NCBI GenBank assembly: GCA_934162205.1
Contig: CAKPIA010000001.1
Coordinates: 128,058-192,057 of the forward strand
Reading direction: 5' to 3'
Length of the DNA: 64,000 nucleotides
From: an uncultured Clostridia bacterium
GTDB lineage: Bacteria > Bacillota > Clostridia > TANB77 > CAG-508
In this document: positions 12,824 to 52,333 of the stretch, piece after piece
Numbering within the stretch: the first letter of the stretch is position 1
How the letters are laid out: the number at the start of each line of letters is the position of its first letter
Program-made: the position numbers and the translations under genes
The notes under the pieces: generated by a model
Seen by the model: only the letters and a program-made list of their open reading frames with translations
Told to the model about the DNA's origin: nothing
Database searches by the model: none

Positions 12824-13534
12824 ATGATAAATTTTATAATTTGTGATGATAATCAAATAATTCTAGATAAATTAGAAAAAATTTTAAATGATATATTTTC
12901 TAGAAATGGATTTGAAGCTCAAGTAGCATTAAAATCTACTAATGTTGACGAAGTTCTTGACTTCGTTACTTTTAACAAAGTGGATGTTTTAATTTTAGAT
13001 ATAAATTTAAAATCTAGACTTACAGGATTAGAACTTGCTCAAAAAGTAAGAGAATTTAATAAAGACTGCTATTTAATATTTACAACAGGTCATCTAGAAT
13101 ATGCAATGCTTGCTTATAAATTCAAAACTTTTGATTATTTAGCAAAACCTATCACATCTGAAAGATTAGAAGATACTATTATAAGATTGTTTGATGATAT
13201 GTTTGGACAACCTAAAAAATATATGAAAATAGATAATAAAAATACACTTATTAATGAAGCAGATATTCAATATATTAAAAGAGAAGGGATGAGGCTTGTT
13301 TACCACACCAGAGATATGGATTATTTTACTTATGGCTCTTTTAATAAAATTCAACCTTCGCTACCAGAAAATTTTATAAGATGTCACAAATCTTATATAG
13401 TAAATATAAATAATGTAAAAAATTATGATGCGACCACTAATACTATTAGTTTTGGTAATAGTGTTTCTTGTGCTGTTGGTCCTAAATATAAAAAGATAAT
13501 TATGGAGGTGTTAAACAATTATGGAAATAAATAA
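12824..13534 (+). CDS. agrA: LytTR-family response regulator (AgrA-like).
   Basis: Receiver domain (DVLILDINL) plus a C-terminal LytTR DNA-binding domain. Length is 236 aa. Confidence 0.85.
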   Translation: MINFIICDDNQIILDKLEKILNDIFSRNGFEAQVALKSTNVDEVLDFVTFNKVDVLILDINLKSRLTGLELAQKVREFNKDCYLIFTTGHLEYAMLAYKFKTFDYLAKPITSERLEDTIIRLFDDMFGQPKKYMKIDNKNTLINEADIQYIKREGMRLVYHTRDMDYFTYGSFNKIQPSLPENFIRCHKSYIVNINNVKNYDATTNTISFGNSVSCAVGPKYKKIIMEVLNNYGNK

Positions 13535-14864
13535 TATTTGGAGTGCTCTATCAAGTGAGAATATTGCAATTATAAATCTTATGAAATACATTGGAATGTT
13601 TATAGAAAGTTATCTTCTTCTTAAACTTTCTTTATCAGCCTTAAACGTAAATTCTTCTAAGAAACAACGAATATTATATGTTTTACTTTTAGGACTAGAA
13701 GGAATTATAAGTTCTTATATAATACCATCACCCTTAAATTTAATTACAAATTATTTTATTAATTTCTTATTAGTTTTATTCATTTTTAAAATAAAACCTT
13801 TAAAAGTAATTTTATTTATAATATTACCAATTTGTATTTTTGCTTTGTTGGGAACACTAATAATAAATCCTTATTTAACATTATTAGATATTACATACGA
13901 ACAAACCGAATCTATTCCAATTTACAGATTAGGTTATTTAGCAATAATGTATACTATTGTTGGTTTAATAATTTGTATCATCAAATGTAAAAATTTTAAA
14001 ATCGCAGTATTAGAAGAACTTGATAAAAAAACAAAATTAATTATAATAAGTAATTTTATTTTAGGATTAATTGTTTTATGTATTCAATTATTTATTAATT
14101 TTTATTATATTAATGAATTTCCTTTAATAATAACTTTTTTAAATTTTATATCTTTATTAGCTTATTTCTTTATAAGTATATATAGTTTAACTAGAGTAAC
14201 AAAATTATATAAAACTCAAAAACAATTAGAAAATTCAGAAGCTTATAATAAATCTTTATCAATATTACATGATAATATTAGATGTTTTAAACATGATTTT
14301 GATAACATTGTTGCAACAATCGGTGGATATGTAAAAACAGATGATATGGAAGGTCTTAAAAAATATTATTATCAATTAGAAGATGATTGTCAAAGAGTTA
14401 ACAATATTGCAACACTAAGTCCAGAAATAATAAATAATCCAGGTGTATATGCAATACTTAGTTCTAAATATCATAAAGCTGATGAAAAAAATATTAAAAT
14501 TAATTTAGAATTTTTCTTAGATTTAAACACACTTAATATGAAAATTTATGAATTTACTAGAATCTTTGGTATACTTTTAGATAATGCAATAGAAGCAAGT
14601 TCAGAATGTGAAGAAAAACTTATAAATATAAAATTTAGAAATGAAGAAAGCAAACATAGGCAAATTGTTGTTATTGAAAATACATTTAAAGATTCAAAAT
14701 TAAATATTGATGATATTTTTCAAAAAGGTGTATCTGGAAAAGAAAATCATACTGGACTTGGATTATGGGAAGTAAGACAAATTTTAAAGAAAAATAATAA
14801 CTTAAATTTACATACACAAAAATCTGAAAATATGTTTATTCAGCAACTTGAAATTTATTATTAA
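13521..14864 (+). CDS. agrC: AgrC-like (HPK10) sensor histidine kinase.
   Basis: Six to seven N-terminal TM helices, H-box FKHDFDN, N-box LLDNAIEAS, G-box GLGLWEV. It overlaps the regulator gene by 14 nt, suggesting translational coupling. Confidence 0.85.
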   Translation: MEINNIWSALSSENIAIINLMKYIGMFIESYLLLKLSLSALNVNSSKKQRILYVLLLGLEGIISSYIIPSPLNLITNYFINFLLVLFIFKIKPLKVILFIILPICIFALLGTLIINPYLTLLDITYEQTESIPIYRLGYLAIMYTIVGLIICIIKCKNFKIAVLEELDKKTKLIIISNFILGLIVLCIQLFINFYYINEFPLIITFLNFISLLAYFFISIYSLTRVTKLYKTQKQLENSEAYNKSLSILHDNIRCFKHDFDNIVATIGGYVKTDDMEGLKKYYYQLEDDCQRVNNIATLSPEIINNPGVYAILSSKYHKADEKNIKINLEFFLDLNTLNMKIYEFTRIFGILLDNAIEASSECEEKLINIKFRNEESKHRQIVVIENTFKDSKLNIDDIFQKGVSGKENHTGLGLWEVRQILKKNNNLNLHTQKSENMFIQQLEIYY

Positions 14865-14877
14865 TAAATACATAAAA

Positions 14878-14910
14878 AAATAACAGCCTTTATTGGCTGT
14901 TATTTTTTTG
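14878..14910. terminator. Bidirectional terminator between the convergent agrC and agrD.
   Basis: AATAACAGCC..GGCTGTTATT stem plus a T7 tract. Confidence 0.6.
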
Positions 14911-14961
14911 TAAAATGGTTTATTTTATAATATTTGCTAAGTTAGCATTATAAAATACTTA

Positions 14962-15081
14962 TTAGTCTTTTTTTATCATAGAAACTGGCATTTTAGGTTG
15001 ATGTAACAACCAAACTAAGAAACATGCTGTATTTGTTGTCTTTGCATACTTTTCTGCAATTTTTGCTAAAATTTTTAACAT
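14962..15081 (-). CDS. agrD: AgrD-like autoinducing peptide precursor of 39 aa. Not in the ORF track.
   Basis: Minus-strand ORF MLKILAKIAEKYAKTTNTACFLVWLLHQPKMPVSMIKKD with RBS AAGGGGGAA 6 nt upstream. It has an amphipathic leader, a single Cys followed by hydrophobics, then a charged HQP...P tail, as in the C. perfringens AgrD sequence recalled from memory (..SACLWFTHQPEEPK..). It lies 57 nt downstream of agrB. Confidence 0.75.
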   Translation of the reverse strand: MLKILAKIAEKYAKTTNTACFLVWLLHQPKMPVSMIKKD

Positions 15082-15138
15082 AAAAATTCCCCCTTTATTT
15101 TTAATTTTTATATAAGAAAAAATTTGTAATGTTTAATC

Positions 15139-15741
15139 TTAGTATACTTCATAACCATATTTATTATTAGTTAGTCTGTACATTACTTTAGTTATTGATA
15201 AGGTCTGAAGTAATGTTCCTATAATTAATATGTTAGATATTACATTATCTCTTATGAAAATTGCAGCTATCAAAGAAATTGTAGCTATAATATAAGAAGC
15301 TAATTGTTTCTTTCGTCTTACTTTAGTTTCTAAGATAGGTACTTCTTCTGTGTCAGCCGGTGCATAAAGTTTTATCATTGCCATCGAAAATATCCATATT
15401 AATGATATAAGAATATATTTAACAATATCATTTAAAACTATATATTGACTTACAAATGCAGTACCACAATATGTTAATGTTGTTGCTATTATGCAACCAA
15501 TATGTGTATGTAGGTGAAATCCTCCCGAAACTGATCTGTATGGCATTATTAATATAAAAGTTATTAGTGTTAATTTAAATATACCTAATATCCATGATAT
15601 TAATAATATTATAAAAATTTTTGGTATCTCACCTATTAAAATTTGTAGGCCATAATTGATGACTTGCGTTCTCTCATCATCAATTTCTGGCATTTTCTTT
15701 CGTATTTTGTTGGTTAAAAATAAGCAGATTTTGTCTATCAT
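15139..15741 (-). CDS. agrB: AgrB-family AgrD-processing membrane endopeptidase.
   Basis: 200-aa polytopic membrane protein with the conserved RSVSGGFHLHTHIGCIIATTL block (catalytic His/Cys). RBS is GAGGTGAGGTG. Confidence 0.85.
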   Translation of the reverse strand: MIDKICLFLTNKIRKKMPEIDDERTQVINYGLQILIGEIPKIFIILLISWILGIFKLTLITFILIMPYRSVSGGFHLHTHIGCIIATTLTYCGTAFVSQYIVLNDIVKYILISLIWIFSMAMIKLYAPADTEEVPILETKVRRKKQLASYIIATISLIAAIFIRDNVISNILIIGTLLQTLSITKVMYRLTNNKYGYEVY

Positions 15742-15929
15742 ATTTTTTCACCTCACCTCTATTTGAGTTCAATTAGAGTTTATCATTAATATTCATTTTT
15801 GATTTTTTTCTTTTATAAAATGTATAAAATAATTCATAAAACTTTTTTCCATGTATTTTTTGTAAAAAAATCATTTTATAAAAAAAGAGGCTAGAAATTT
15901 TTTCTAGTCTCTTAAGAAAATTATTACTT

Positions 15930-17009
15930 TTATAAAGTTTCTTTATACATATTTGCATACATTTCCAATGCATCATCAAAAGAATCTGCAAGAATAATCT
16001 CACCATGTAATTTCATAATACCTTTCTGATATTTATCCATTACAGGTTTAATTTTATAGAGTTCTCCCCATTCTCCATACCGAAGATATTCACTACTATT
16101 GTACTTTAAAGTCTTATTACTATAAGTAATATCTTTACAATGACCATGTACAATAATACTCTTCTTTGGAAAAGTTTCAAATAATTCAAGTACCAAAGGT
16201 GTCTCAGAAGATGGATTAATTTTTCCAGCCCAAGAAACAATATGATCTTTACTGTCAAGAATAAGTGTAAGATTTTCTCGTTTCAATGCTCCTACAGAGG
16301 CTCCAGTAGACGTTATTAAAACTCCCTCTGGTATCTTTCTTGCAATAAAACCAGCCACACCATTAGTATATTGATTCTCTTGCAAAAATTTTCCTACTGT
16401 AAAAAATTCTGGAAAATATTTAGTAATAATATCTGTCATGTCATAATCAATCTTCTTGTGTGAATATCTTATCTTTGTATATCTGTGGCATATATTATCT
16501 AAAATCTTTTCCCATGGAGCCATTGTAATTCTATCCAAAGTTCCATCTTCATTATAAATGTACTCTGGATATACAATAGAAACATTACCAAAAGCATTAA
16601 TCTTAGCAAAGTTTTCCTTAGTTATAGGATGATTGAAATATCCCTGGTTCATAGATGGTGCAATTACAATGTACTTACCATATCCAATTGCTGAATGAAT
16701 AATCGATAATGGATAATTATCAGCAATTCCATTAGCAATTTTTGAAAATGTATTAAAAGTACATGGTGCTACAACAATTAAATCTTCTTCAGGAATTCTT
16801 TCATTGATAGAATTTGCTCTATTAAATGTATAGTCTCTCTTAATTTTATACCCTTCAACTGTTCTTAAGTCCATTATTGAACAACTAGCCGCAGTAGGCA
16901 TTAGGATACATGTTGCTCCTTCTGCTTTAAGGTAATCTAAGAGAATCTTTACATCTTTACTCTTGTTAGCTCCTGTTGTTACAACATAAACCACTTTACC
17001 TTTAAGCAT
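15930..17009 (-). CDS. Fusion protein with an N-terminal HFCD/CoaC-like flavoprotein domain and a C-terminal class II aldolase/adducin domain.
   Basis: N-terminal VVYVVTTGANKS...LIVVAPCTFNTFSKIANGIADN...YIVIAPSMN matches the flavoprotein (PF02441-like) signature. C-terminal NGVAGFIARK..VLITSTGASVGALKRENL...SSETPLVLELF...IIVHGHC matches the class II aldolase signature (GGN(I/V)S, ITPSG, HTHS-like). Confidence 0.6.
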   Translation of the reverse strand: MLKGKVVYVVTTGANKSKDVKILLDYLKAEGATCILMPTAASCSIMDLRTVEGYKIKRDYTFNRANSINERIPEEDLIVVAPCTFNTFSKIANGIADNYPLSIIHSAIGYGKYIVIAPSMNQGYFNHPITKENFAKINAFGNVSIVYPEYIYNEDGTLDRITMAPWEKILDNICHRYTKIRYSHKKIDYDMTDIITKYFPEFFTVGKFLQENQYTNGVAGFIARKIPEGVLITSTGASVGALKRENLTLILDSKDHIVSWAGKINPSSETPLVLELFETFPKKSIIVHGHCKDITYSNKTLKYNSSEYLRYGEWGELYKIKPVMDKYQKGIMKLHGEIILADSFDDALEMYANMYKETL

Positions 17010-17020
17010 ATTATTTCCTC

Positions 17021-17530
17021 CTATTCAAAATTATATTTTCGATATAGTTCATATGCAATCGCCGAAACAGCAACTGGTAATGTAAGAAAATCAACTTTTG
17101 ATTTATCCATTGGTAGCTTAATTATTTCATCTAACATTTTCTGTTTAGCAATAGTTAAGCCAGATGTTTCTGTTCCAAAAACTACAACAACATCTTTATC
17201 TTCAGGTAAATCTAAATCATAAAAAATTTTGTTGGTGTTTCCAGATGTACCAATAAGATATTTTCCCTTTGCTCTTAAGTCCGTAATAGCTTCTTCAAAG
17301 GTATTGTAATGAATCTCCTTTACCTCACCTGTAATATTCCATGATTTAACTTTACTTGTAATTTTTGGAATATCAAATGGTATTGAATTTTTTCCAGCCG
17401 TATAGATAACGCAATCAATTGCATTTGCAATCTGGATAACATGTGCAATATCATACGGTGACCGAATTGTGTCAAATAACAGTTCTACTTTTTTCATAAT
17501 GTTTACCTCACCTTTCACTTTTTTTTGCAA
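17021..17530 (-). CDS. SPOUT (SpoU/TrmH-family, TrmL-like) RNA 2'-O-methyltransferase.
   Basis: VVVFGTETSGL and IKLPM...TLPVAVSAIAYELYR motifs. Length is 169 aa, comparable to TrmL. Confidence 0.65.
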   Translation of the reverse strand: MQKKVKGEVNIMKKVELLFDTIRSPYDIAHVIQIANAIDCVIYTAGKNSIPFDIPKITSKVKSWNITGEVKEIHYNTFEEAITDLRAKGKYLIGTSGNTNKIFYDLDLPEDKDVVVVFGTETSGLTIAKQKMLDEIIKLPMDKSKVDFLTLPVAVSAIAYELYRKYNFE

Positions 17531-18218
17531 CCAAAATAAATGGATCTGATGTTATGTTACAATTACCATTTAAGTTTTCTATTATTTTTTCTTCATCTTT
17601 TTCAGAATAATTCTCAATAAAAGGAAAACTTTTAGTAATGTTAATAATTTCTTGAACACTTTGATACTTTCTTTGTATCTCATATTGTTCAACACTAATA
17701 ATATCAAACCCAGATTTCTCAAGTTTAGTAGAATAATATTCAATCTTTCTGCTTCTAATCAGTCTATTTCTAAACAGACTAGCTATTTCTACTAATCCCT
17801 TACTTGGTCCATATTCTCTAAAAACAAAATATCCCCCATTTTTAAGTACTCTGTATAATTCATCAGAATCATATATAGTTACATTTTTTGCAGTAATAAT
17901 ATCAAAAGAATTATTTGCAAAAGGAAGATTATTATTGTCTGCTTCAAGAATATTTGCACTTTCTCCCAAATTTTTTCTGGCTACTTTTACCATTTCACTT
18001 GAATTATCAACTCCTGTCAATGTGCTTTTGATACTTGAACATTCTTTAATTTGTTTTAATACAAATCCATTTCCTGTTCCAATATCAAGGATTTTAGATC
18101 CCTCTTCCATAAAAGAAATAATTTTCCGAACAAACAAACTATTAATATCCTGAGTTTGTTTGACGGGTGCTGCAATACTAGTGCTACGAATATTCACAAC
18201 TTTTTCATCGTAAAACAT
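17508..18218 (-). CDS. Class I SAM-dependent methyltransferase.
   Basis: ILDIGTGNGFV motif I, Methyltransf_11-like. Overlaps the downstream SPOUT gene by 23 nt. Confidence 0.75.
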   Translation of the reverse strand: MFYDEKVVNIRSTSIAAPVKQTQDINSLFVRKIISFMEEGSKILDIGTGNGFVLKQIKECSSIKSTLTGVDNSSEMVKVARKNLGESANILEADNNNLPFANNSFDIITAKNVTIYDSDELYRVLKNGGYFVFREYGPSKGLVEIASLFRNRLIRSRKIEYYSTKLEKSGFDIISVEQYEIQRKYQSVQEIINITKSFPFIENYSEKDEEKIIENLNGNCNITSDPFILVAKKSER

Positions 18219-18327
18219 CTTTTCACCCTTTCATAAATTATTTTTACTGGATCATTTTATCATTTTATGTATACTTTGTCAATAATTAAGCTTTTAAAAT
18301 ACAAAAAGTACAGCATTAACTGTACTC

Positions 18328-18771
18328 TTAAAATTTATCTATCTTTTCTTCTTTAAAAAATTTTTCCTTTTTAATTCCTAATTTTAAAACATCTTCTAGT
18401 ATTTTCTTATCTCCAAACCAATTTATTTGTTCTATAAATTCATCAAACTTGCACCATTTATAATCTATACTTTCTTCATTCAATACGATATTGGTTTTAT
18501 TTACAAAACTTATATACACATATTCTTTACAATGTACTTTTAATGATTCATATTCTAAAATCCAATTTAAATAAATATTATTATTAGTCAATAGTCCTGT
18601 TTCTTCTTTTACTTCTCTTTTAACAGTTTCTTCTCTATCTAAATCCTCTTCTTCACATCCTCCTGTTACTACATACCAAAATGATTTTTTAAATTGTGGA
18701 TCATCATCACTACCTTTTAATAATAATATTTCGTTATATTCATTTACAATAAATGTTAAAATTTTATTCAC
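18328..18771 (-). CDS. NUDIX hydrolase.
   Basis: Nudix box GGCEEEDLDREETVKREVKEETGL. Confidence 0.8.
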   Translation of the reverse strand: MNKILTFIVNEYNEILLLKGSDDDPQFKKSFWYVVTGGCEEEDLDREETVKREVKEETGLLTNNNIYLNWILEYESLKVHCKEYVYISFVNKTNIVLNEESIDYKWCKFDEFIEQINWFGDKKILEDVLKLGIKKEKFFKEEKIDKF

Positions 18772-18930
18772 TTATATCACCATATATAAGTATATCACTT
18801 AACCATATATTTAGCAATAAATTATCAAGTCATTTACTTTTATGTAAATTCATGCTATAATATTGACGTTCTCAATTATATTTAAACACAAACTATGTTT
18901 TAGTTTGTAAATCTACAAGGAGGTATTGAC

Positions 18931-19734
18931 ATGAGTAATTGGTACGAATCTAGCATCAAGTCATTGGTTGAAGAGTATTTTAAAGAACATGGTTTTCCCG
19001 TTGTCTTTGACTCTTCAGAGTTCTGGAATGTGTTTATTGAAAAATATCATAAACAACTTCCCAGCTCTCAAATAGCACATTTTGATAAAATTGCTACAGA
19101 AGCACGGTCATATGCATTTAATAAAAAATATGGTACCTATTCATATTTAACAGATTATCGTTCTGTATGTGAAAATTGGAATCATATTATCTTAAATGAA
19201 ATCCAAAAAATTCTTGGAAAAAATTTGGATTCAAAAAAAGTTCTTGCTTTAGGAGCTAATAACGGCTCTGAACTTGCTATCATCTTTGAGAATTTTTTTA
19301 ATACAATTGATTTTAATGTTGTAGAAATCTCAGAAACAGCTTGTTCTTCTGGCAAGACACTTTATCCAAATATTAATTTCATATGTGCGTCAATGGATGA
19401 AGTACCTCTTTCTGAAAATGAATTTGATATTTTCATCAGTTTACGTGCTGCATACTGTGCGGGTAATAACCTCGACTTTATAGTTAACAAGGCTATCCAT
19501 TCTGTTAAACCTGGCGGAGTTATCATCTTTTCCATATCAAATGGATACATTGATGTATCTGATGGTAAATATACACCTATTAAAGGAGTATATAACCCGG
19601 AAAATAAACATTGTGATGAAACAGAAACTGAAAGAAACATCAATTGGATGAAAAATGCTATGTTGACAAATGGTTGCTCAAAGGTTGATTTAGTTGATGC
19701 AGAAAGTGAGATTCTACTTATTTCTAAGCGTTAA
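18931..19734 (+). CDS. Putative SAM-dependent methyltransferase-like protein.
   Basis: KVLALGANNGSEL (motif I-like), FDIFISLRAAY, VKPGGVIIFSI. The assignment is tentative. Confidence 0.45.
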   Translation: MSNWYESSIKSLVEEYFKEHGFPVVFDSSEFWNVFIEKYHKQLPSSQIAHFDKIATEARSYAFNKKYGTYSYLTDYRSVCENWNHIILNEIQKILGKNLDSKKVLALGANNGSELAIIFENFFNTIDFNVVEISETACSSGKTLYPNINFICASMDEVPLSENEFDIFISLRAAYCAGNNLDFIVNKAIHSVKPGGVIIFSISNGYIDVSDGKYTPIKGVYNPENKHCDETETERNINWMKNAMLTNGCSKVDLVDAESEILLISKR

Positions 19735-19744
19735 CTCCAAAAAA

Positions 19745-19787
19745 CATACTAATAGAGTCCTTATGTATAAGGACTCTATTAGTATAT
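19745..19787. terminator. Strong bidirectional hairpin terminator.
   Basis: ATACTAATAGAGTCCTTA-TGTA-TAAGGACTCTATTAGTAT, an 18-bp perfect stem. Confidence 0.7.
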
Positions 19788-20475
19788 CTCAATTTTTACA
19801 TCTTTTAAAATACACCATGTTCCATTGCTTTCTGGAAAATCTTTAAATACCATTTCTTCTTTTGTTGTAGGATGACTAATTTTTAACTTATATGCCCATA
19901 ATGCTATTTGTTTTCCTTTACCTCTTGTTCCATATTTTTGATCACCAAATATACTATGTCCAAAATTAGATAATTGAACTCTTATTTGATGGTGTCTTCC
20001 TGTATGAAGATTTATTTTTAATAAAGATAAATTTTTTACTTCATTATATGCAAGAACTTCATAATCTAATTTAGCAAATTTACTATTTTTCTTATCTTTA
20101 TTTACAACTTTGCTTATATTATTTCTTTCATCTTTATATAAATAATCTTCTAATGTTCCGCTTCTTATTTTCTATTTTTCCATCAACAACAGCAAGATAC
20201 ATTTTGCTAAACTCTTTATTTCTTATTTGTTCACTAAGTCTTGATGCAGCTTTAGATGTTTTGGCAAATACCATAACTCCTCCAACTGGTCTATCTAATC
20301 TATGAACAAGTCCTAAATAAACATTTCCTGGTTTATTATATTTTTCTTTTATGTATTCTTTTATAATTGTAAGCATATCTATATCTTCTGTTTTATCTGA
20401 TTGTGATGGTATGTTAGGCTTTTTTTCTACAACTATTATGTGATTATCCTCATAAATAATTTTTAAATCTTGCAT
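19778..20475 (-). pseudogene. RluA-family pseudouridine synthase interrupted by a +1 frameshift. The extra base lies near plus-strand 20160.
   Basis: The N-terminal frame contains HRLDRPVGGVMVFAKT (catalytic Asp motif) and ends KIENKKRNIRRLFI*. The downstream frame continues GTLEDYLYKDERNNISK...HTGRHHQIRVQL..., the conserved RluA C-terminal core. Removing the C in AAGAAGCGGAACA restores KIENKKGTLEDY. Confidence 0.75.
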
Positions 20476-20486
20476 TTTTTCTCCTC

Positions 20487-21350
20487 TTATTTTTCCCATC
20501 TTCCATATATACCACATGGCAATATCAATTTTGACTCTTCCATTGGTAATCCAATTTCACCTGATGTTACTTTTCCTTTATATTTTTTTGATACTGTTAA
20601 TTTTAAAATATCTTGTAACACTACATTTGATATTCCTGTTGTATATGAATTTATTAAGAAAAATAAAGGATCATCTGATAATACTTTTGTACACAAATCT
20701 ACTAAATCATATATATTATTTTCAAATTGCCATACTTCTCCATTTGTTCCTCTACCATATGATGGTGGATCCATTATTATTGCATCATATTTATTTTCTC
20801 TTCTTATTTCTCTATTAACAAATTTTACAACATCATCAACTATATATCTTACTTTTCTATCTTCTAAACCTGATGAAACAACATTTTCTTTTGCCCATGT
20901 AACCATTCCTTTTGAACTATCAACATGACAACAAGATGCTCCCGCTGATAAACAGGCAACTGTTGCACCACCAGTATATGCAAATAAATTTAGCACTTTT
21001 ATTTCTCTTTTTTCTGATTTTATTTTATCTATCATCCAATCCCAATTAACTGCTTGTTCTGGGAATAAACCTGTATGTTTAAATCCCATTGGCTTTATAT
21101 TAAAAGTTAAATCTTTATATTTTATTTGCCATTGTTTTGGCATTTTTTTATTATATTCCCATGCTCCACCACCAGTTTTACTTCTATGATATGTAGCATT
21201 TATTTCATTCCATTTTTTTGGAAAACTTTTATCTTTCCAAATTATTTGTGGATCTGGTCTAGATAAAACAACATTTCCCCATCTTTCTAACTTTTGTCCA
21301 TCTGCCATATCTAATATTTTATAATCTTTCCAATCATTTGCTATATTCAT
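20487..21350 (-). CDS. Class I SAM-dependent RNA methyltransferase (RlmI/RlmK-like, COG1092).
   Basis: LNLFAYTGGATVA SAM-binding and DPPSY motifs. Length is 287 aa. Confidence 0.7.
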   Translation of the reverse strand: MNIANDWKDYKILDMADGQKLERWGNVVLSRPDPQIIWKDKSFPKKWNEINATYHRSKTGGGAWEYNKKMPKQWQIKYKDLTFNIKPMGFKHTGLFPEQAVNWDWMIDKIKSEKREIKVLNLFAYTGGATVACLSAGASCCHVDSSKGMVTWAKENVVSSGLEDRKVRYIVDDVVKFVNREIRRENKYDAIIMDPPSYGRGTNGEVWQFENNIYDLVDLCTKVLSDDPLFFLINSYTTGISNVVLQDILKLTVSKKYKGKVTSGEIGLPMEESKLILPCGIYGRWEK

Positions 21351-30878: not shown

Positions 30879-32174
30879 ATGGGAAAAATTATTCCTTGTG
30901 TCACAGAAATCGTTGGAGCATACTGGGGCGACGAAGGTAAAGGCAGAGTTGCTGCTTTTGAAGCCCGGGATGCAAAATTGGTTTTAAGAACCACTGGTGG
31001 TAATAATGCTGGTCATACAGTGTATTACAATGGAGAAAAAATTCCACTTCATTTAATACCTGGAGGTATTATTTATGATCAAGCAACGGCAGTTATTTGC
31101 CAAGGAGTTGTTGTTGACCCCAAAGTTTTAAAGGACGAGATTGATTTACTTTCTAAGTATATCAATATTACTCCTGATAAACTTATTATTTCAGACTGTG
31201 CTCATCTCATTTTACCGCATCATATTGCCCTGGATAAGATTCAGGAAAATTTACGCGGTAATAATAAGATTGGCACTACAAAATCTGGAATCGGTCCATG
31301 TTATCATGACATGAGTGACCGGGTAGGCATTAGAATGATGGATTTATTCCGTTCTGAAGAAGGTCTTAAAGAACTTATTAAGACTGTATTACAGTTTAAT
31401 GCACCGGTTATGCAGTTAGAAGATATTTCGTATTCTGTTGAAGAGTACTATGATTTCTGTATGACTGCAAAGAAAAATATTGGTAAGTTCATAAAAAATG
31501 CTGAGCCTACAATTGATTTTGCCTTGAAAAATCATGACAAAATCGTCATTGAAGGTGCACAGGCAGATCATTTGGATATTCTTAACGGAGACTATCCAGA
31601 TTGTACAAGTTCACAGTGCAATCCATCTGGAACTCTTTCTGGTGCAGGAATTGGTCCTGTGTATGTTGAAAGAGTAATTGCAACTACAAAGGCATATTGT
31701 TCACGGGTAGGTAATGGTATTTTTCCTACAGAACTGGATGATGATGAAGGAGACATCATAAGAGAATTTGGCTACGAATATGGCACAACTACAGGTCGCC
31801 CACGAAGATGTGGCTGGTTAGACTTAGTTGCTCTAAGAACAGTAACTAGAGGCTATACCGATCTTTGTTTAAACCATTTGGATACAATCGGTTTAATAGG
31901 AAATAAACTTGGACATATAAAAATCTGTACAGGTTATACCTACAAAGGAGTTGTAACATACAACTTCCCTACTGACACAAAAATTAGCGGAAAATCGCCA
32001 AAACCACACTATAAAACATTTGATGGTGGTTGGGAAATTCCTGATAACTGTAGATCTTTTGATGAACTTCCAGAAAAAGCAAAGGAATTTGTTCTCTTTA
32101 TTGAAGAATACACTAAGATTCCTGTTAGCTATATTGGCATAGGTCCTAATAACGAAGATACAATCATTCGTTAA
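30879..32174 (+). CDS. purA: Adenylosuccinate synthetase with strongly atypical (higher) GC content.
   Basis: GDEGKGR P-loop, GGNNAGHT, and TTGRPRRCGW motifs. Length is 431 aa. Local GC is about 40-45% against about 22-25% in the flanks. It uses CGG/CCG/GGC codons that are rare elsewhere in the window. Confidence 0.9.
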   Translation: MGKIIPCVTEIVGAYWGDEGKGRVAAFEARDAKLVLRTTGGNNAGHTVYYNGEKIPLHLIPGGIIYDQATAVICQGVVVDPKVLKDEIDLLSKYINITPDKLIISDCAHLILPHHIALDKIQENLRGNNKIGTTKSGIGPCYHDMSDRVGIRMMDLFRSEEGLKELIKTVLQFNAPVMQLEDISYSVEEYYDFCMTAKKNIGKFIKNAEPTIDFALKNHDKIVIEGAQADHLDILNGDYPDCTSSQCNPSGTLSGAGIGPVYVERVIATTKAYCSRVGNGIFPTELDDDEGDIIREFGYEYGTTTGRPRRCGWLDLVALRTVTRGYTDLCLNHLDTIGLIGNKLGHIKICTGYTYKGVVTYNFPTDTKISGKSPKPHYKTFDGGWEIPDNCRSFDELPEKAKEFVLFIEEYTKIPVSYIGIGPNNEDTIIR

Positions 32175-50455: not shown

Positions 50456-50920
50456 ATGAAACCATTAGATACAAAAAAAGGTTATCAAGAATATGTTGAT
50501 AAAAAATCGCCTAATTCCCCTATATTAAAAAACTGCTTTAACGCATTCTGGGTTGGTGGTTTAATTTGTTCTATTGGACAAGTTATTTTATCAATTTGTA
50601 AGCAAAGAGGTTTAAGTGTTGAAACCTCTGGCACAATTGTTTCTATTATATTAATAGGAATTAGTGCTTTTTTAACAGGATTAAATATATTTAATAAAAT
50701 AGGAAAATTTGCAGGTGCAGGTTCTTTAGTTCCTATAACTGGATTTGCTAATTCTATTGTAGCACCTGCTATGGAATACAAATCCGAAGGATATATTATG
50801 GGAGTTGGTGGAAAAATGTTTACTGTTGCAGGTCCTGTTTTAGTATTCGGGATATCTGCTTCTATAATAGTTGGACTAATCTACTTAATATTTAATACCC
50901 AAGCAATAACTTTAGTTTAA
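50456..50920 (+). CDS. spoVAC: Stage V sporulation protein AC.
   Basis: 154-aa membrane protein with conserved blocks FWVGGLICSIGQ and PITGFANSIVAPA. Confidence 0.9.
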   Translation: MKPLDTKKGYQEYVDKKSPNSPILKNCFNAFWVGGLICSIGQVILSICKQRGLSVETSGTIVSIILIGISAFLTGLNIFNKIGKFAGAGSLVPITGFANSIVAPAMEYKSEGYIMGVGGKMFTVAGPVLVFGISASIIVGLIYLIFNTQAITLV

Positions 50921-50932
50921 GGAGATGGTTTT

Positions 50933-51934
50933 ATGCAAAAAATAGGAAAACAAACAATAAAATTTGATAATCCCCCAACAATAACTCAAACAGCAAGCAT
51001 TGTTGGTCCAAAAGAAACTGACGGACCTCTTGCAAAATATTTTGATCAATGTTTAGAAGATGAATTTTGGGGTGAAAATAGCTGGGAAAAAGCTGAAAGT
51101 AAAATAATTAAAGAAACAGTCAACACATTAATTGCCAAATCTGGTATTCCATCAGAAAAAATAGATTATTGTTTTGCAGGAGATCTATTAAATCAATGTA
51201 TTTCCTCAAGTTTTGGTTTAAGAGATTTAAATATTCCCTTCTTTGGAATATTTGGTGCATGTTCTACATTTGTAGAAGGTATGAGTTTATCTGCAATTTT
51301 TGCAGAAGCAGGTATGGAAAATGTTATGTGTGCAGCATCCAGTCACTTCTGTAGTGCAGAAAAGCAATTTAGATTTCCTCTTGAATTAGGAAATCAGAGA
51401 ACTCCTACCTCTCAATGGACAGTCACAGGAGCTGGTGCAGCATTAATTTCTAAAAATGGTTCAGGTCCTTATATAACGCATATAACTCCTGGTAAAATAG
51501 TCGACATGGGAATTAAAGATGCAAATAATATGGGAGCAGCTATGGCTCCTGCTGCTTGTGATACTTTAATTACTCATTTAAAAGATACAGAAAGAAAACC
51601 AAGTTACTATGATGCTATAATAACTGGAGATTTAGGACATGTTGGTAAATCAATTTTAATAGACTTAGCAGAATCAAAAGGTTATAATATAAAATCAAAT
51701 TATAATGATTGTGGTGTATTGATATTTGACCAACAAAAACAGGATACTCATGCTGGTGGAAGTGGATGTGGATGCTGTGGAAGCGTATTTTCTGGATATT
51801 TTTTTAAACAATTACAAGATAAAAAATTAAAAAGAATTTTACTTATTGCAACAGGTGCTTTGACTAATTCTACTAGTAGTCAACAAGGTGAATCAATTCC
51901 TGGTATCGCTCATGCAATAAGTATAGAATTATAG
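50933..51934 (+). CDS. spoVAD: Stage V sporulation protein AD.
   Basis: 333 aa with a thiolase/KAS-like fold, conserved in the spoVA operon. Confidence 0.9.
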   Translation: MQKIGKQTIKFDNPPTITQTASIVGPKETDGPLAKYFDQCLEDEFWGENSWEKAESKIIKETVNTLIAKSGIPSEKIDYCFAGDLLNQCISSSFGLRDLNIPFFGIFGACSTFVEGMSLSAIFAEAGMENVMCAASSHFCSAEKQFRFPLELGNQRTPTSQWTVTGAGAALISKNGSGPYITHITPGKIVDMGIKDANNMGAAMAPAACDTLITHLKDTERKPSYYDAIITGDLGHVGKSILIDLAESKGYNIKSNYNDCGVLIFDQQKQDTHAGGSGCGCCGSVFSGYFFKQLQDKKLKRILLIATGALTNSTSSQQGESIPGIAHAISIEL

Positions 51935-51946
51935 TGAGGTGTTATT

Positions 51947-52333
51947 ATGGAATTTTTACAAAGTTTTGATTGGATGCAACTTTTAAGATGTTTTGTAGTT
52001 GGTGGTCTAATTTGTGTTATAGGTCAAATTCTTATTGATAAAACAAAACTAACACCTGCAAGAATTTTGGTTTTATTTGTAACTACAGGAACTATTTTAG
52101 GTGGATTAGGAATTTATAAATATTTAGTAGATTTCGCTGGTGCTGGCGCTACTGTACCTTTAACAGGATTTGGATATAATTTAGCCAAAGGTGCAATTGA
52201 AGGTGTTAAAGAATCAGGAATTGTTGGTGCATTTACAGGTGGAGTTAAAGCTTCTGCTGGTGGAATTGCTGCTGCTGTATTCTTCGGTTACATTGCTTCA
52301 CTTATCTCAAAACCAAAAATGAAAAAACAATAA
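51947..52333 (+). CDS. spoVAEb: Stage V sporulation protein AE (SpoVAEb).
   Basis: 128-aa membrane protein with FVVGGLICVIGQ and PLTGFGYNLAKGA blocks. Confidence 0.85.
   Translation: MEFLQSFDWMQLLRCFVVGGLICVIGQILIDKTKLTPARILVLFVTTGTILGGLGIYKYLVDFAGAGATVPLTGFGYNLAKGAIEGVKESGIVGAFTGGVKASAGGIAAAVFFGYIASLISKPKMKKQ

What the first reader, a model, noticed from the sequence alone, without database searches (positions are those of the whole stretch)
15930..19734. GC-elevated operon upstream of agrB encoding a flavoprotein/class II aldolase fusion and two methyltransferases
A minus-strand operon sits immediately upstream of agrBD. It comprises a SAM methyltransferase (17508-18218), a TrmL-like SPOUT 2'-O-methyltransferase (17021-17530, overlapping by 23 nt), and a 359-aa fusion (15930-17009). 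The fusion joins an HFCD/CoaC/EpiD-type flavoprotein domain to a class II aldolase/adducin domain (MtnB/FucA-like).

I am not aware of a described pathway using this domain fusion. The region runs at about 30% GC against a 22-25% baseline. A NUDIX hydrolase and a divergent methyltransferase-like gene flank it. Together the set looks like an acquired small-molecule or nucleoside/RNA-modification module. The flavoprotein could act as a Cys-decarboxylase or a PPC-decarboxylase-like enzyme, but its function here cannot be assigned.
Basis: partly seen in the sequence, partly recalled or inferred. Interest (0 to 1): 0.65.

Follow-up and report, generated by a model that had tools for sequence, protein, structure and literature searches.

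The report
Mobile flavoprotein-aldolase and methyltransferase gene cassette
A 3.9-kb five-gene block in this gut Clostridia-like genome is one version of a rare, uncharacterised enzyme set that has spread between very distant small-genome bacteria and archaea; it probably tailors a nucleotide or sugar-phosphate, and it has nothing demonstrable to do with the neighbouring agr quorum-sensing genes.

Summary
The genes are real and both domain calls hold: an HFCD flavoprotein half fused to a class II aldolase half (Pfam; AlphaFold pLDDT 92; Foldseek). Three details need correcting. SpoU is 158 aa and does not overlap MT1. The GC rise is modest and is matched by housekeeping genes in the window. 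The agr adjacency is incidental: a terminator lies between, and relatives have other neighbours.

Across 42 non-redundant loci, the fusion sits beside one particular divergent SPOUT protein in 39 and beside MT1 in 33. Two accessory sets never co-occur. One is a viperin-like radical SAM plus a methyltransferase. The other is a TrxR-like flavoprotein, a SLOG protein, an NMN-adenylyltransferase-like protein, NUDIX and a second SpoU. Hosts are small Clostridia and Bacilli, CPR bacteria and DPANN archaea. In relatives, nucleotide similarity begins and ends at the edges of the five-gene block (about 15,880-19,780).

The flavoprotein half lacks the catalytic His of Cys and PPC decarboxylases. The aldolase half keeps its zinc triad, Glu and phosphate-binding residues.

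Best reading (about 0.4): a mobile, SAM- and flavin-dependent module that tailors a nucleotide or pentose phosphate. Main rival: an RNA hypermodification pathway. No description was found in the literature searched.

The parts
15880..19780 (.). Whole five-gene cassette (MT2, NUDIX, MT1, SpoU, fusion) with its flanking terminators
   Evidence: blastn to six related loci at 82-87% identity starts at 15873-15883. It ends at about 19780 in L102 and L103, which hold the whole block, and at 19734 in L085/L086. No similarity to the window's flanks was found.
15930..17009 (-). 359-aa fusion protein: HFCD flavoprotein domain joined to a compact class II aldolase domain. A GGAGGA ribosome-binding site lies 7 nt upstream of the ATG.
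16491..16991 (-). HFCD (CoaC/EpiD-type) flavoprotein domain, aa 7-173. FMN-type motifs (TGA, PCTFNT, GIADNY) are conserved. The catalytic His and the Cys clamp segment of the decarboxylases are absent.
   Evidence: Pfam E 7e-17; Foldseek 1mvn/1e20/3qjg; profile alignment to EpiD and PPCDC; column counts
15933..16400 (-). Class II aldolase/adducin-fold domain, aa 204-359. Zn triad H288/H290/H335 is kept in 19 of 19 members and E269 in 18 of 19. The PSSE and ITSTG phosphate-binding motifs are kept. The FucA Tyr113 loop is deleted.
   Evidence: Pfam; Foldseek FucA, YgbL, DrdA; hhalign 97.5% to FucA; column counts
17021..17497 (-). Divergent SPOUT-fold protein ('SpoU family 1'), 158 aa, the exclusive partner of the fusion
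   Evidence: Pfam SpoU_methylase 47.8 bits; corrected start; adjacent to the fusion in 39 of 42 loci; knot-only alignment to a canonical SpoU
17508..18218 (-). Class I SAM methyltransferase MT1, 236 aa, first gene of the three-gene operon
   Evidence: Methyltransf_11 E 1.6e-16; present in 33 of 42 loci
18254..18282 (-). Promoter-like site, TTGACA-17-TAAAAT with a TG extension (11 of 12 matches), upstream of MT1
   Evidence: sequence
18304..18329 (-). Terminator-like hairpin plus T-run directly after the NUDIX stop codon
18328..18771 (-). Small single-domain NUDIX hydrolase, 147 aa
   Evidence: PF00293 E 1.6e-13. Same family as the NUDIX inside Type II operons; present in 15 of 42 loci. 57% identical to the L007 copy.
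18931..19734 (+). Divergently transcribed class I methyltransferase MT2, 267 aa, with a 100-aa N-terminal extension
   Evidence: Methyltransf_25/11. Travels with NUDIX in 5 of its 6 loci; 69% identical in L007.
19744..19787 (.). Perfect 19-bp inverted repeat with flanking T-runs: a terminator between MT2 and the convergent rluA-like gene. It marks the right border of the cassette.
15878..15913 (-). Hairpin (15885-15913) plus U7 run after the fusion stop codon. It is terminator-like and marks the left border of the cassette.
   Evidence: dG -10.8 kcal/mol, z -2.4; similarity border at 15873-15883

Best explanation
The region is a discrete, horizontally mobile five-gene cassette: MT2, divergent from NUDIX, then the MT1-SpoU-fusion operon. 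It is a reduced form of an uncharacterised enzyme module.

The invariant core of that module is one divergent SPOUT-fold SAM-binding protein, the HFCD-flavoprotein::class II aldolase fusion and, nearly always, the class I methyltransferase MT1.

I infer that the module tailors a nucleotide-derived or pentose-phosphate-type small molecule. The proposed steps, all inferred, are:
1. NUDIX trims a (poly)phosphate or dinucleotide.
2. The FMN domain of the fusion dehydrogenates the substrate. It does not decarboxylate a cysteine.
3. The adjacent Zn site stabilises an enediolate on a phosphorylated keto-sugar moiety, leading to cleavage, epimerisation, dehydration or decarboxylation.
4. The SPOUT protein, MT1 and MT2 add methyl groups.

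Shown:
- The cassette borders and the operon signals.
- The composition of the core and of the accessory sets.
- The cross-domain distribution.
- Which catalytic residues are kept and which are lost.

Inferred: the substrate class, the order of the steps and the biological role.
For: Cassette: similarity to six relatives starts at 15873-15883 and ends at 19734-19780, with unrelated flanks. The operon has its own promoter and terminators.

Core:
- SpoU family 1 is adjacent to the fusion in 39 of 42 non-redundant loci, and MT1 in 33 of 42.
- SpoU family 1 is an isolated family of 138 clusters. It is the same size as the fusion family, and many entries share longest-contig lengths with fusion hits.
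- SpoU family 1 is 61-74% identical between Clostridia and CPR bacteria.

Nucleotide theme in the accessory genes:
- A radical SAM matching pVip profiles over its full length (E 1e-31), with viperin, BlsE and MoaA among its best PDB relatives.
- An NMN-adenylyltransferase-like protein (E 8e-25).
- A SLOG/LOG-fold protein (Pfam LDcluster4 at E 2e-5; Foldseek to the Moco carrier protein and LOG-AMP complexes).
- NUDIX in 15 loci.
- PRPP synthetase next to the archaeal operon.
- An APH-type kinase inserted in one relative.

Fusion chemistry:
- The Zn triad is kept in 19 of 19 members and the Glu in 18 of 19. The PSSE and TG phosphate-binding motifs are conserved.
- FMN-type motifs are invariant, while the decarboxylase His is absent.

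Charge: SpoU family 1, NUDIX, MT2, MTb and MTc are acidic, whereas the canonical SpoU of the same operons is basic.

Distribution: Clostridia, Bacilli, CPR phyla and Nanoarchaeota-labelled contigs that also carry prefoldin.
Against: - No substrate is identified, and nothing here is biochemical.
- As far as I know (from memory, not checked here), every characterised SPOUT enzyme acts on RNA. Public sources call this one TrmH or TrmL.
- MT1 and MTe are basic, and MT1 weakly resembles RlmA and a phage 'tRNA methyltransferase' family.
- The window's own version lacks the most nucleotide-suggestive partners (radical SAM, SLOG, NMNAT-like). The inference for this locus therefore rests on relatives.
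- The charge argument is weak and mixed.
- Taxonomic labels of metagenome bins are uncertain.
- The SLOG Pfam match is just below the gathering score.
Confidence: 0.4

Rival explanations
1. The module is an RNA (tRNA or rRNA) hypermodification pathway. The SPOUT protein and the class I methyltransferases methylate a specific nucleotide in RNA. The flavoprotein-aldolase, the radical SAM or the TrxR-like enzyme builds or remodels a side group on that nucleotide. The cassette spreads because the modification gives an advantage, for example resistance to a ribosome- or tRNA-targeting toxin.
For: - PF00588 SpoU_methylase is above its cutoff, and sources annotate the protein as TrmH or TrmL.
- Type II operons add a canonical SpoU/TrmH (103 bits).
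- MT1 aligns to the RlmA model across its whole catalytic domain (E 5.5e-12) and to a phage 'tRNA methyltransferase' family.
- MTb weakly matches the Erm and KsgA models.
- MT1 and MTe are basic.
- A GNAT and an APH-type kinase occur nearby in some loci.
Against: - SpoU family 1 lacks the motif-1 Asn/Arg region and the motif-3 Asn of the 2'-O-methyltransferases, and it is mildly acidic.
- To my knowledge, viperin-like radical SAM enzymes, NUDIX, NMNAT-like, SLOG and class II aldolase proteins are not parts of known RNA-modification pathways.
- All equivalog scores are far below their cutoffs.
Confidence: 0.25
2. The module is an antiviral or antagonistic system related to prokaryotic viperins. 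It makes a modified, chain-terminating or otherwise toxic nucleotide analogue. The core enzymes and methyltransferases elaborate or detoxify that analogue.
For: - The Type I partner radical SAM matches pVip profiles over its full length and viperin structures.
- The cassette has mobile-element-like behaviour and a patchy cross-domain spread.
- It lies in a T4SS region in one Saccharibacteria genome and near Fic and SWIM genes in another.
- NUDIX and kinase partners recall nucleotide-analogue pathways.
Against: - The window has no radical SAM.
- No core protein matches any PADLOC model.
- The radical SAM scores 92 bits against a cutoff of 180 for the viperin model.
- Neither phages nor plasmids carry the fusion.
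- No consistent defence-island neighbours were seen.
Confidence: 0.12
3. The module is a housekeeping salvage route. It disposes of SAM by-products or nucleotide-derived ribose in reduced genomes, working like the MTA / 5'-deoxyadenosine DHAP shunt or the MtnB step.
For: - The aldolase half is closest to the OtnC, FucA and MtnB models and to the DrdA and FucA structures.
- A distant relative fuses the same aldolase type to a nucleoside-phosphorylase-superfamily domain (P0304).
- Many SAM-using enzymes sit in the module.
- PRPP synthetase, a PfkB kinase and transketolase lie near one archaeal copy.
Against: - Three to five methyltransferases are biosynthetic, not catabolic.
- The module has no nucleosidase, isomerase or kinase as a regular member.
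- The window's version has no radical SAM that would generate 5'-deoxyadenosine.
- Patchy, cassette-like inheritance is unusual for core salvage.
Confidence: 0.08
4. The flavoprotein is a peptidyl-cysteine or phosphopantothenoylcysteine decarboxylase. It would act on the neighbouring AgrD peptide (a RiPP-like tailoring step) or in CoA biosynthesis.
For: - The best sequence and structure matches of the N-half are EpiD, PPCDC and AtHAL3a.
- agrBD lies 188 nt downstream, and AgrD has a Cys.
- A CoaBC-aldolase triple fusion exists elsewhere (P0252).
Against: - The catalytic His is absent, the PxMN Asn is kept in only 10 of 19 members, and the Cys-clamp segment is missing.
- P0252, a genuine CoaBC, keeps the His, which shows the contrast.
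- The CoaBC and CoaC models score 59 and 40 bits against cutoffs of 220 and 261.
- The agr adjacency is absent from close relatives and from all other phyla.
- A terminator lies between the fusion and agrB.
Confidence: 0.03

Closest known systems
HFCD flavoproteins: CoaC / PPC decarboxylase (AtHAL3a, human PPCDC) and LanD enzymes (EpiD, MrsD)
   Same: Same fold (Foldseek TM about 0.8). The same FMN-site motifs are present (a G/S-x-A-type N-terminal loop, a [ST]-x-N-T motif, a G-x-x-D-N motif) and the C-terminal 'MA' motif.
   Different: No catalytic His, no conserved PxMN Asn and no Cys-clamp segment. The domain is fused to a class II aldolase instead of CoaB. Scores are far below the family cutoffs.
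Class II (Zn) aldolase/adducin superfamily: FucA, MtnB, AraD, OtnC/YgbL, DrdA
   Same: Same fold (TM about 0.66). The HxH plus H zinc triad, the PSSE Glu and the phosphate-binding Ser-Ser and Thr-Gly motifs are all kept.
   Different: The domain is compact, about 155 aa. The 13-residue FucA segment carrying Tyr113 is deleted, and FucA Asn29 is replaced by Phe or Cys. No equivalog model comes near its cutoff. The reaction type is unknown.
SpoU/TrmH/TrmL SPOUT 2'-O-methyltransferases
   Same: The trefoil-knot SAM-binding half is present, with the G-x-E-x-x-G and P-M motifs. PF00588 is above its cutoff.
   Different: The N-terminal motif-1 region does not align. The motif-3 Asn is an invariant Thr. 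The family is isolated, with 138 clusters, and mildly acidic. TrmL scores 34 bits against 190.
Prokaryotic viperin (pVip) loci
   Same: In 12 related loci the core is paired with a radical SAM of about 305 aa that matches pVip profiles end to end.
   Different: The window has no such gene. The radical SAM is below the curated viperin cutoff. As far as I know, viperin loci are not described with a SPOUT protein or a flavoprotein-aldolase partner.
NUDIX-initiated nucleoside-analogue biosynthetic clusters (for example puromycin: NUDIX Pur7, an oxidoreductase, N- and O-methyltransferases, an acetyltransferase). This comparison is recalled from memory, not tested.
   Same: The enzyme classes are the same: a small NUDIX, an oxidoreductase acting on ribose, several SAM methyltransferases, and an occasional kinase or GNAT neighbour.
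   Different: There is no detectable homology beyond the superfamily level. The hosts are reduced-genome symbionts rather than actinomycetes. No product is known.

Membership tests
HFCD Cys/PPC decarboxylases (CoaC, EpiD/LanD) | Rossmann-like HFCD fold with an FMN-binding site | tested here: met
   PF02441 at 61.9 bits against a cutoff of 22.7. Foldseek to 1mvn, 1e20 and 3qjg at TM about 0.8. FMN-type motifs are invariant. Flavin binding itself was not measured.
HFCD Cys/PPC decarboxylases (CoaC, EpiD/LanD) | Catalytic histidine (EpiD His67, AtHAL3a His90) | tested here: not met
   EpiD His67 aligns to a non-conserved column. The window has Ile68 there, in the only loop with pLDDT below 50. 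14 of 19 members have no His in the segment.
HFCD Cys/PPC decarboxylases (CoaC, EpiD/LanD) | PxMNxxMW motif Asn that binds the substrate | tested here: not met
   Asn is kept in 10 of 19 members; the others have Gly, Asp or Ser.
HFCD Cys/PPC decarboxylases (CoaC, EpiD/LanD) | Score above the curated family cutoff | tested here: not met
   coaBC_dfp 58.9 against 219.7; coaC_strep 40.5 against 261.4.
Class II aldolase/adducin superfamily | Fold plus the three-His metal site and the catalytic Glu | tested here: met
   PF00596 at 35.1 bits against 22.2. Foldseek to FucA. hhalign 97.5% to FucA. H288, H290 and H335 are kept in 19 of 19 members and E269 in 18 of 19.
Class II aldolase/adducin superfamily | Phosphate-binding Ser-Ser (PSSE) and Thr-Gly motifs | tested here: met
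   S267 and S268 are each kept in 18 of 19 members. T/S235 is kept in 19 of 19 and G236 in 18 of 19. This is a motif-level mapping only.
L-fuculose-phosphate aldolase (FucA) proper, or MtnB / OtnC / AraD equivalogs | FucA Tyr113 loop; equivalog score | tested here: not met
   The 13-residue segment carrying Tyr113 is deleted. Scores: OtnC 36 against 250, MtnB 27.7 against 137, FucA 18.9 against 400, AraD 21 against 389.
TrmL / TrmH 2'-O-methyltransferases | SPOUT trefoil-knot SAM-binding domain | tested here: met
   PF00588 at 47.8 bits against 29.7. The knot half aligns to a canonical SpoU at 90.8% probability.
TrmL / TrmH 2'-O-methyltransferases | Motif-1 Asn/Arg and motif-3 Asn; equivalog score | tested here: not met
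   The N-terminal half does not align. The motif-3 'LN' is an invariant 'LT'. TrmL scores 34.4 against 190.6 and RlmB 35.7 against 160.
TrmL / TrmH 2'-O-methyltransferases | RNA substrate | not testable with these tools
   Only indirect evidence: median pI 6.1, against 8.6 for the canonical SpoU of the same operons.
Prokaryotic viperin system | A viperin-family radical SAM in the locus | tested here: not met
   tblastn finds no radical SAM anywhere in the 64-kb window. In Type I relatives the partner matches pVip profiles but falls below the NCBIfam cutoff (92 against 180).
agr quorum-sensing operon | Co-transcription with agrBD and conserved linkage to it | tested here: not met
   A terminator-like hairpin plus U7 run lies between the fusion and agrB. 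Relatives at 82-90% identity have other neighbours. No agr gene is among the recurrent neighbours in 42 loci. Transcription itself was not measured.

The most novel reading that the evidence does not exclude
The SPOUT + HFCD::aldolase core defines a previously unrecognised biosynthetic pathway shared by horizontal transfer among ultra-small symbiotic prokaryotes (CPR bacteria, DPANN archaea, reduced Firmicutes). The pathway would make a methylated nucleotide- or pentose-phosphate-derived metabolite, possibly an antiviral, antagonistic or signalling molecule. In it a SPOUT-fold enzyme would act on a small molecule rather than on RNA. The viperin-like radical SAM set and the flavin/SLOG/NMNAT set would be alternative routes to the same intermediate.
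Probability: 0.25. Interest if true: 0.85.

Novelty: new variant of a known kind. Interest (0 to 1): 0.66.

Why it matters
If the inference holds, this is an undescribed enzyme module built from familiar superfamilies in an unfamiliar combination. It is exchanged across the bacterial-archaeal divide among organisms with the smallest known genomes, and such genomes rarely keep genes that do not pay their way.

It offers a concrete, compact target (3.9 kb, five genes) for heterologous expression. That could reveal three things: a new nucleotide-derived metabolite or RNA modification, a possible first non-RNA substrate for a SPOUT enzyme, and a new reaction for an HFCD flavoprotein that has lost its decarboxylase residues.

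It also connects a viperin-like radical SAM to partner enzymes not previously linked with it.

For annotation, it shows that labels such as 'TrmH family RNA methyltransferase' and 'flavoprotein' hide a coherent system.

Tried and rejected
- **Compositional evidence for acquisition.** It is too weak. Per-gene z-scores are 1.6 or less for GC, and housekeeping genes are as high.
- **Mobile-element borders.** There are no meaningful flanking direct repeats. The neighbouring rluA-like ORF is frameshifted, not truncated by an insertion.
- **Defence-system membership.** The core has no PADLOC match.
- **Phage or plasmid carriage.** Only flavoprotein-only hits were found.
- **Split versions of the fusion.** 65 flavoprotein-only loci (Actinobacteria, Chloroflexi) have no aldolase or SpoU nearby.
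- **Odd architectures.** P0094 (aldolase + HAD) and P0070 (SpoU + partial fusion) look like chimeric short contigs, and P0095 is a fragment.
- **Family 3 as LOG-like.** The sequence profile against PDB gave only E = 1.4. It was later settled by Pfam LDcluster4 and the predicted fold.
- **Literature.** Eight searches found nothing on the fusion or the module. The paper that defined the SLOG clusters is not held.
- **Pterin, flavin, CoA and quinone cofactor ideas.** I considered these from weak model hits (NudB-like NUDIX, AfpA/DmrX, UbiX, UbiE). I dropped them for lack of any specific support.

Full report
**1. What is in the sequence**

The five ORFs exist as described. Pfam gives the following:
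- the 359-aa product (15930-17009, minus strand): Flavoprotein PF02441 (aa 7-173, E 7e-17) plus Aldolase_II PF00596 (aa 204-296, E 1.6e-8);
- the next gene: SpoU_methylase;
- the third: a class I methyltransferase (MT1);
- then a 147-aa NUDIX;
- a divergent class I methyltransferase (MT2);
- agrB directly downstream.

An AlphaFold model built on 19 family members is confident (pLDDT 92.1, pTM 0.88). Foldseek matches its N-half to AtHAL3a and EpiD (TM about 0.8) and its C-half to FucA, YgbL and DrdA (TM about 0.66). No solved chain covers both halves.

**2. Corrections to the description**

SpoU most likely starts at the ATG at 17497. That start has a GGTGAGG ribosome-binding site, and nearly all full-length homologues are 151-169 aa, most of them 156-159. 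The start lies 10 nt after the MT1 stop, so there is no 23-nt overlap.

A terminator-like hairpin follows the NUDIX stop codon. A near-consensus extended -10 promoter (TTGACA-17-TGnTAAAAT) precedes MT1. A hairpin (dG -10.8 kcal/mol, z -2.4) plus a U7 run follows the fusion stop codon. MT1-SpoU-fusion therefore looks like its own transcription unit. agrB has its own ribosome-binding site and is followed by a 39-aa agrD.

**3. Composition**

The block is 28.8% GC against a window mean of 25.4%, in the top 4% of equal-sized windows. Per gene, the z-scores are only 1.3 (fusion), 1.3 (SpoU), 0.6 (MT1), -1.0 (NUDIX) and 1.6 (MT2). GC3 stands out only for SpoU (z 2.2) and MT2 (z 2.9). serS, purA (36.9% GC) and spoVAC/AD/AE in the same window are as high or higher. 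Composition alone does not show acquisition.

**4. Comparative evidence**

*Family size.* The fusion family is small. About 95 full-length clusters at 90% identity carry it. An exhaustive profile search finds roughly 30 full-length representatives at 50% identity among 1.84 billion proteins.

*Hosts.* Scans of genomes and metagenomes and contig look-ups gave 42 non-redundant loci. The hosts are:
- uncultured Clostridia and Bacilli (including Clostridium sp. CAG:628);
- Saccharibacteria, Moraniibacteriota and other Patescibacteria, and an Omnitrophota-labelled bin;
- contigs labelled Nanoarchaeota, one of which also carries prefoldin.

*ORF census.* The number of loci with each neighbour of the fusion is:

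| Neighbour | Loci (of 42) |
|---|---|
| Divergent SPOUT protein (SpoU family 1) | 39 (the other three are contig ends) |
| MT1 | 33 |
| SLOG protein | 17 |
| NUDIX | 15 |
| MTb | 13 |
| Radical SAM | 12 |
| TrxR-like flavoprotein | 12 |
| MTc | 11 |
| NMNAT-like protein | 8 |
| MT2 | 6 |
| MTe | 6 |
| Canonical second SpoU | 5 |

*Layouts.* Three recur:
- **Type I:** radical SAM and MTb, divergent from MT1-SpoU-fusion.
- **Type II:** MT1, TrxR-like, SpoU, fusion, SLOG, (NMNAT-like), MTc, NUDIX, (SpoU2).
- **Type III (this window):** MT2, divergent from NUDIX-MT1-SpoU-fusion.

The radical SAM set and the SLOG/TrxR-like set never co-occur (12 loci, 17 loci, 0 with both).

*Partnership.* SpoU family 1 is an isolated family of 138 clusters. 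That is about the same size as the fusion family, and many entries share longest-contig lengths with fusion hits. It is 61-74% identical between Clostridia and CPR bacteria, which is more conserved than the fusion (42-57%) or MT1 (44-50%).

**5. The block is a cassette**

blastn against six relatives at 82-87% identity starts at 15,873-15,883. It ends at about 19,780 in L102 and L103, which hold the whole block, and at 19,734 in L085/L086. These borders are the two terminators, and the flanks show no similarity to the window. One relative has an APH-type kinase gene inserted between NUDIX and MT1. Only same-species contigs (97% identity) share the agrB side. An 87%-identical relative has an ABC transporter there instead.

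No flanking direct repeats were found. The neighbouring rluA-like gene is frameshifted rather than truncated. No phage or plasmid record carries the fusion.

**6. What the proteins can and cannot be**

*HFCD half.* The FMN-type motifs are invariant (A14, P82, T84, G94, D97). The catalytic His of EpiD and AtHAL3a aligns to a variable, gapped column. The window has Ile68 there, in the only low-confidence loop, and 14 of 19 members have no His in that segment. The PxMN Asn is kept in 10 of 19, and the Cys-clamp segment is absent. By contrast P0252, a genuine CoaC-CoaB protein with an appended aldolase domain, keeps the His. This half is therefore not a canonical Cys or PPC decarboxylase.

*Aldolase half.* H288, H290 and H335 are kept in 19 of 19 members and E269 in 18 of 19. 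The PSSE and Thr-Gly phosphate-binding motifs are conserved. The FucA segment carrying Tyr113 is deleted. This is a probably active metal-enediolate site for a phosphorylated keto-sugar. It is not a member of any named equivalog.

*SPOUT protein.* Only the SAM-binding knot aligns to a canonical SpoU. The motif-3 Asn is an invariant Thr.

*Accessory proteins.*
- The radical SAM matches pVip profiles end to end (E 1e-31). Its best PDB relatives are SkfB, viperin, BlsE and MoaA. It is below the curated viperin cutoff.
- Family 9 is like an archaeal NMN adenylyltransferase.
- Family 3 is a SLOG/LOG-fold protein.
- The TrxR-like protein lacks the redox CxxC in 11 of 12 loci.

**7. Interpretation**

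Three facts are shown: the accessory genes share a nucleotide theme, the aldolase site binds phosphate, and the flavoprotein has lost its decarboxylase residues.

From them I infer a module that tailors a nucleotide-derived or pentose-phosphate-type small molecule. The steps would be pyrophosphate trimming, FMN-dependent dehydrogenation, Zn-enediolate chemistry and several methylations. Charge data give weak support: SpoU family 1 has median pI 6.1 against 8.6 for the canonical SpoU.

The main rival is an RNA hypermodification pathway. It is favoured by the SPOUT precedent and by the basic, RlmA-like MT1. An antiviral viperin-type role and a salvage role remain possible. The AgrD/RiPP or CoA decarboxylase idea is essentially excluded.

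**8. Novelty**

Eight literature searches found no description of the fusion or the module. Public records call the proteins 'flavoprotein', 'hypothetical protein' or 'TrmH family RNA methyltransferase'. The superfamilies are known. The combination, the exclusive SPOUT-fusion partnership and the cross-domain cassette behaviour appear to be undescribed.

Noticed in passing
window 12824-15741: A complete agr-type quorum-sensing locus: agrB (15139-15741, minus), a 39-aa agrD (14962-15081, minus; MLKILAKIAEKYAKTTNTACFLVWLLHQPKMPVSMIKKD), and a convergent GHKL histidine kinase (13521-14864) and LytTR response regulator (12824-13534). A terminator sits at 14874-14909.
   Followed up: partly
window ~19800-20517 (minus strand): An RluA-type pseudouridine synthase gene is split by a frameshift. 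The N-terminal 127 aa are in one frame and the rest continues in another. This is either a pseudogene or an assembly error at a homopolymer.
   Followed up: partly
related loci L002-L014, L081, L083, L112-L132, L180: Around the same SpoU + fusion core, a viperin-like radical SAM + MTb set (12 loci) and a TrxR-like + SLOG (+ NMNAT-like, MTc, NUDIX, second SpoU) set (17 loci) never co-occur. They may be alternative routes to one intermediate, for example oxygen-independent versus flavin-dependent.
   Followed up: partly
proteins P0252, P0304, P0327, P0253, P0256 (one search hits): Distant relatives of the aldolase half occur in other fusions: CoaC-CoaB-aldolase (607 aa), receiver domain-aldolase-nucleoside phosphorylase (1115 aa), and DeoC-aldolase (399 aa). 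They also occur in families of about 320 aa and about 800 aa that share the linker plus the aldolase. Their contexts could not be looked up.
   Followed up: partly
loci L016-L080, L088-L099, L140-L179; plasmid hits H1-H8: More than 500 flavoprotein-only relatives share the AP[CA]TFNT and GIAD[NS]Y motifs. They occur in Actinobacteria and Chloroflexi, on Streptomyces plasmids and in some viral contigs. They are annotated only as 'flavoprotein' and have no aldolase or SpoU nearby.
   Followed up: partly
L085 5755-6678 (between NUDIX and MT1): A 307-aa APH/Bud32-like kinase gene is inserted into the cassette of an 87%-identical relative, at the point equivalent to window 18296-18328.
   Followed up: partly
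L180 5470-12707: A contig labelled Nanoarchaeota, with prefoldin nearby, carries a nine-gene Type II operon with overlapping genes. PRPP synthetase lies immediately upstream, and a PfkB kinase and transketolase are nearby.
   Followed up: no
window 30879-32174: Adenylosuccinate synthetase (purA) is the most GC-rich gene of the window (36.9% GC, GC3 0.243, z above 3). It is more of an outlier than anything in the finding.
   Followed up: no
window 50456-52333: spoVAC, spoVAD and spoVAE homologues, recognised by eye from the translations rather than by a profile search, suggest that the source organism is a spore-forming Firmicute despite its very low GC (25.4%).
   Followed up: no
protein clusters: The 90% clustering of the protein collection places MT1 (236 aa) in the same cluster as the SpoU proteins. 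This is probably an artefact of read-through or overlapping ORF calls at the MT1/SpoU junction.
   Followed up: no
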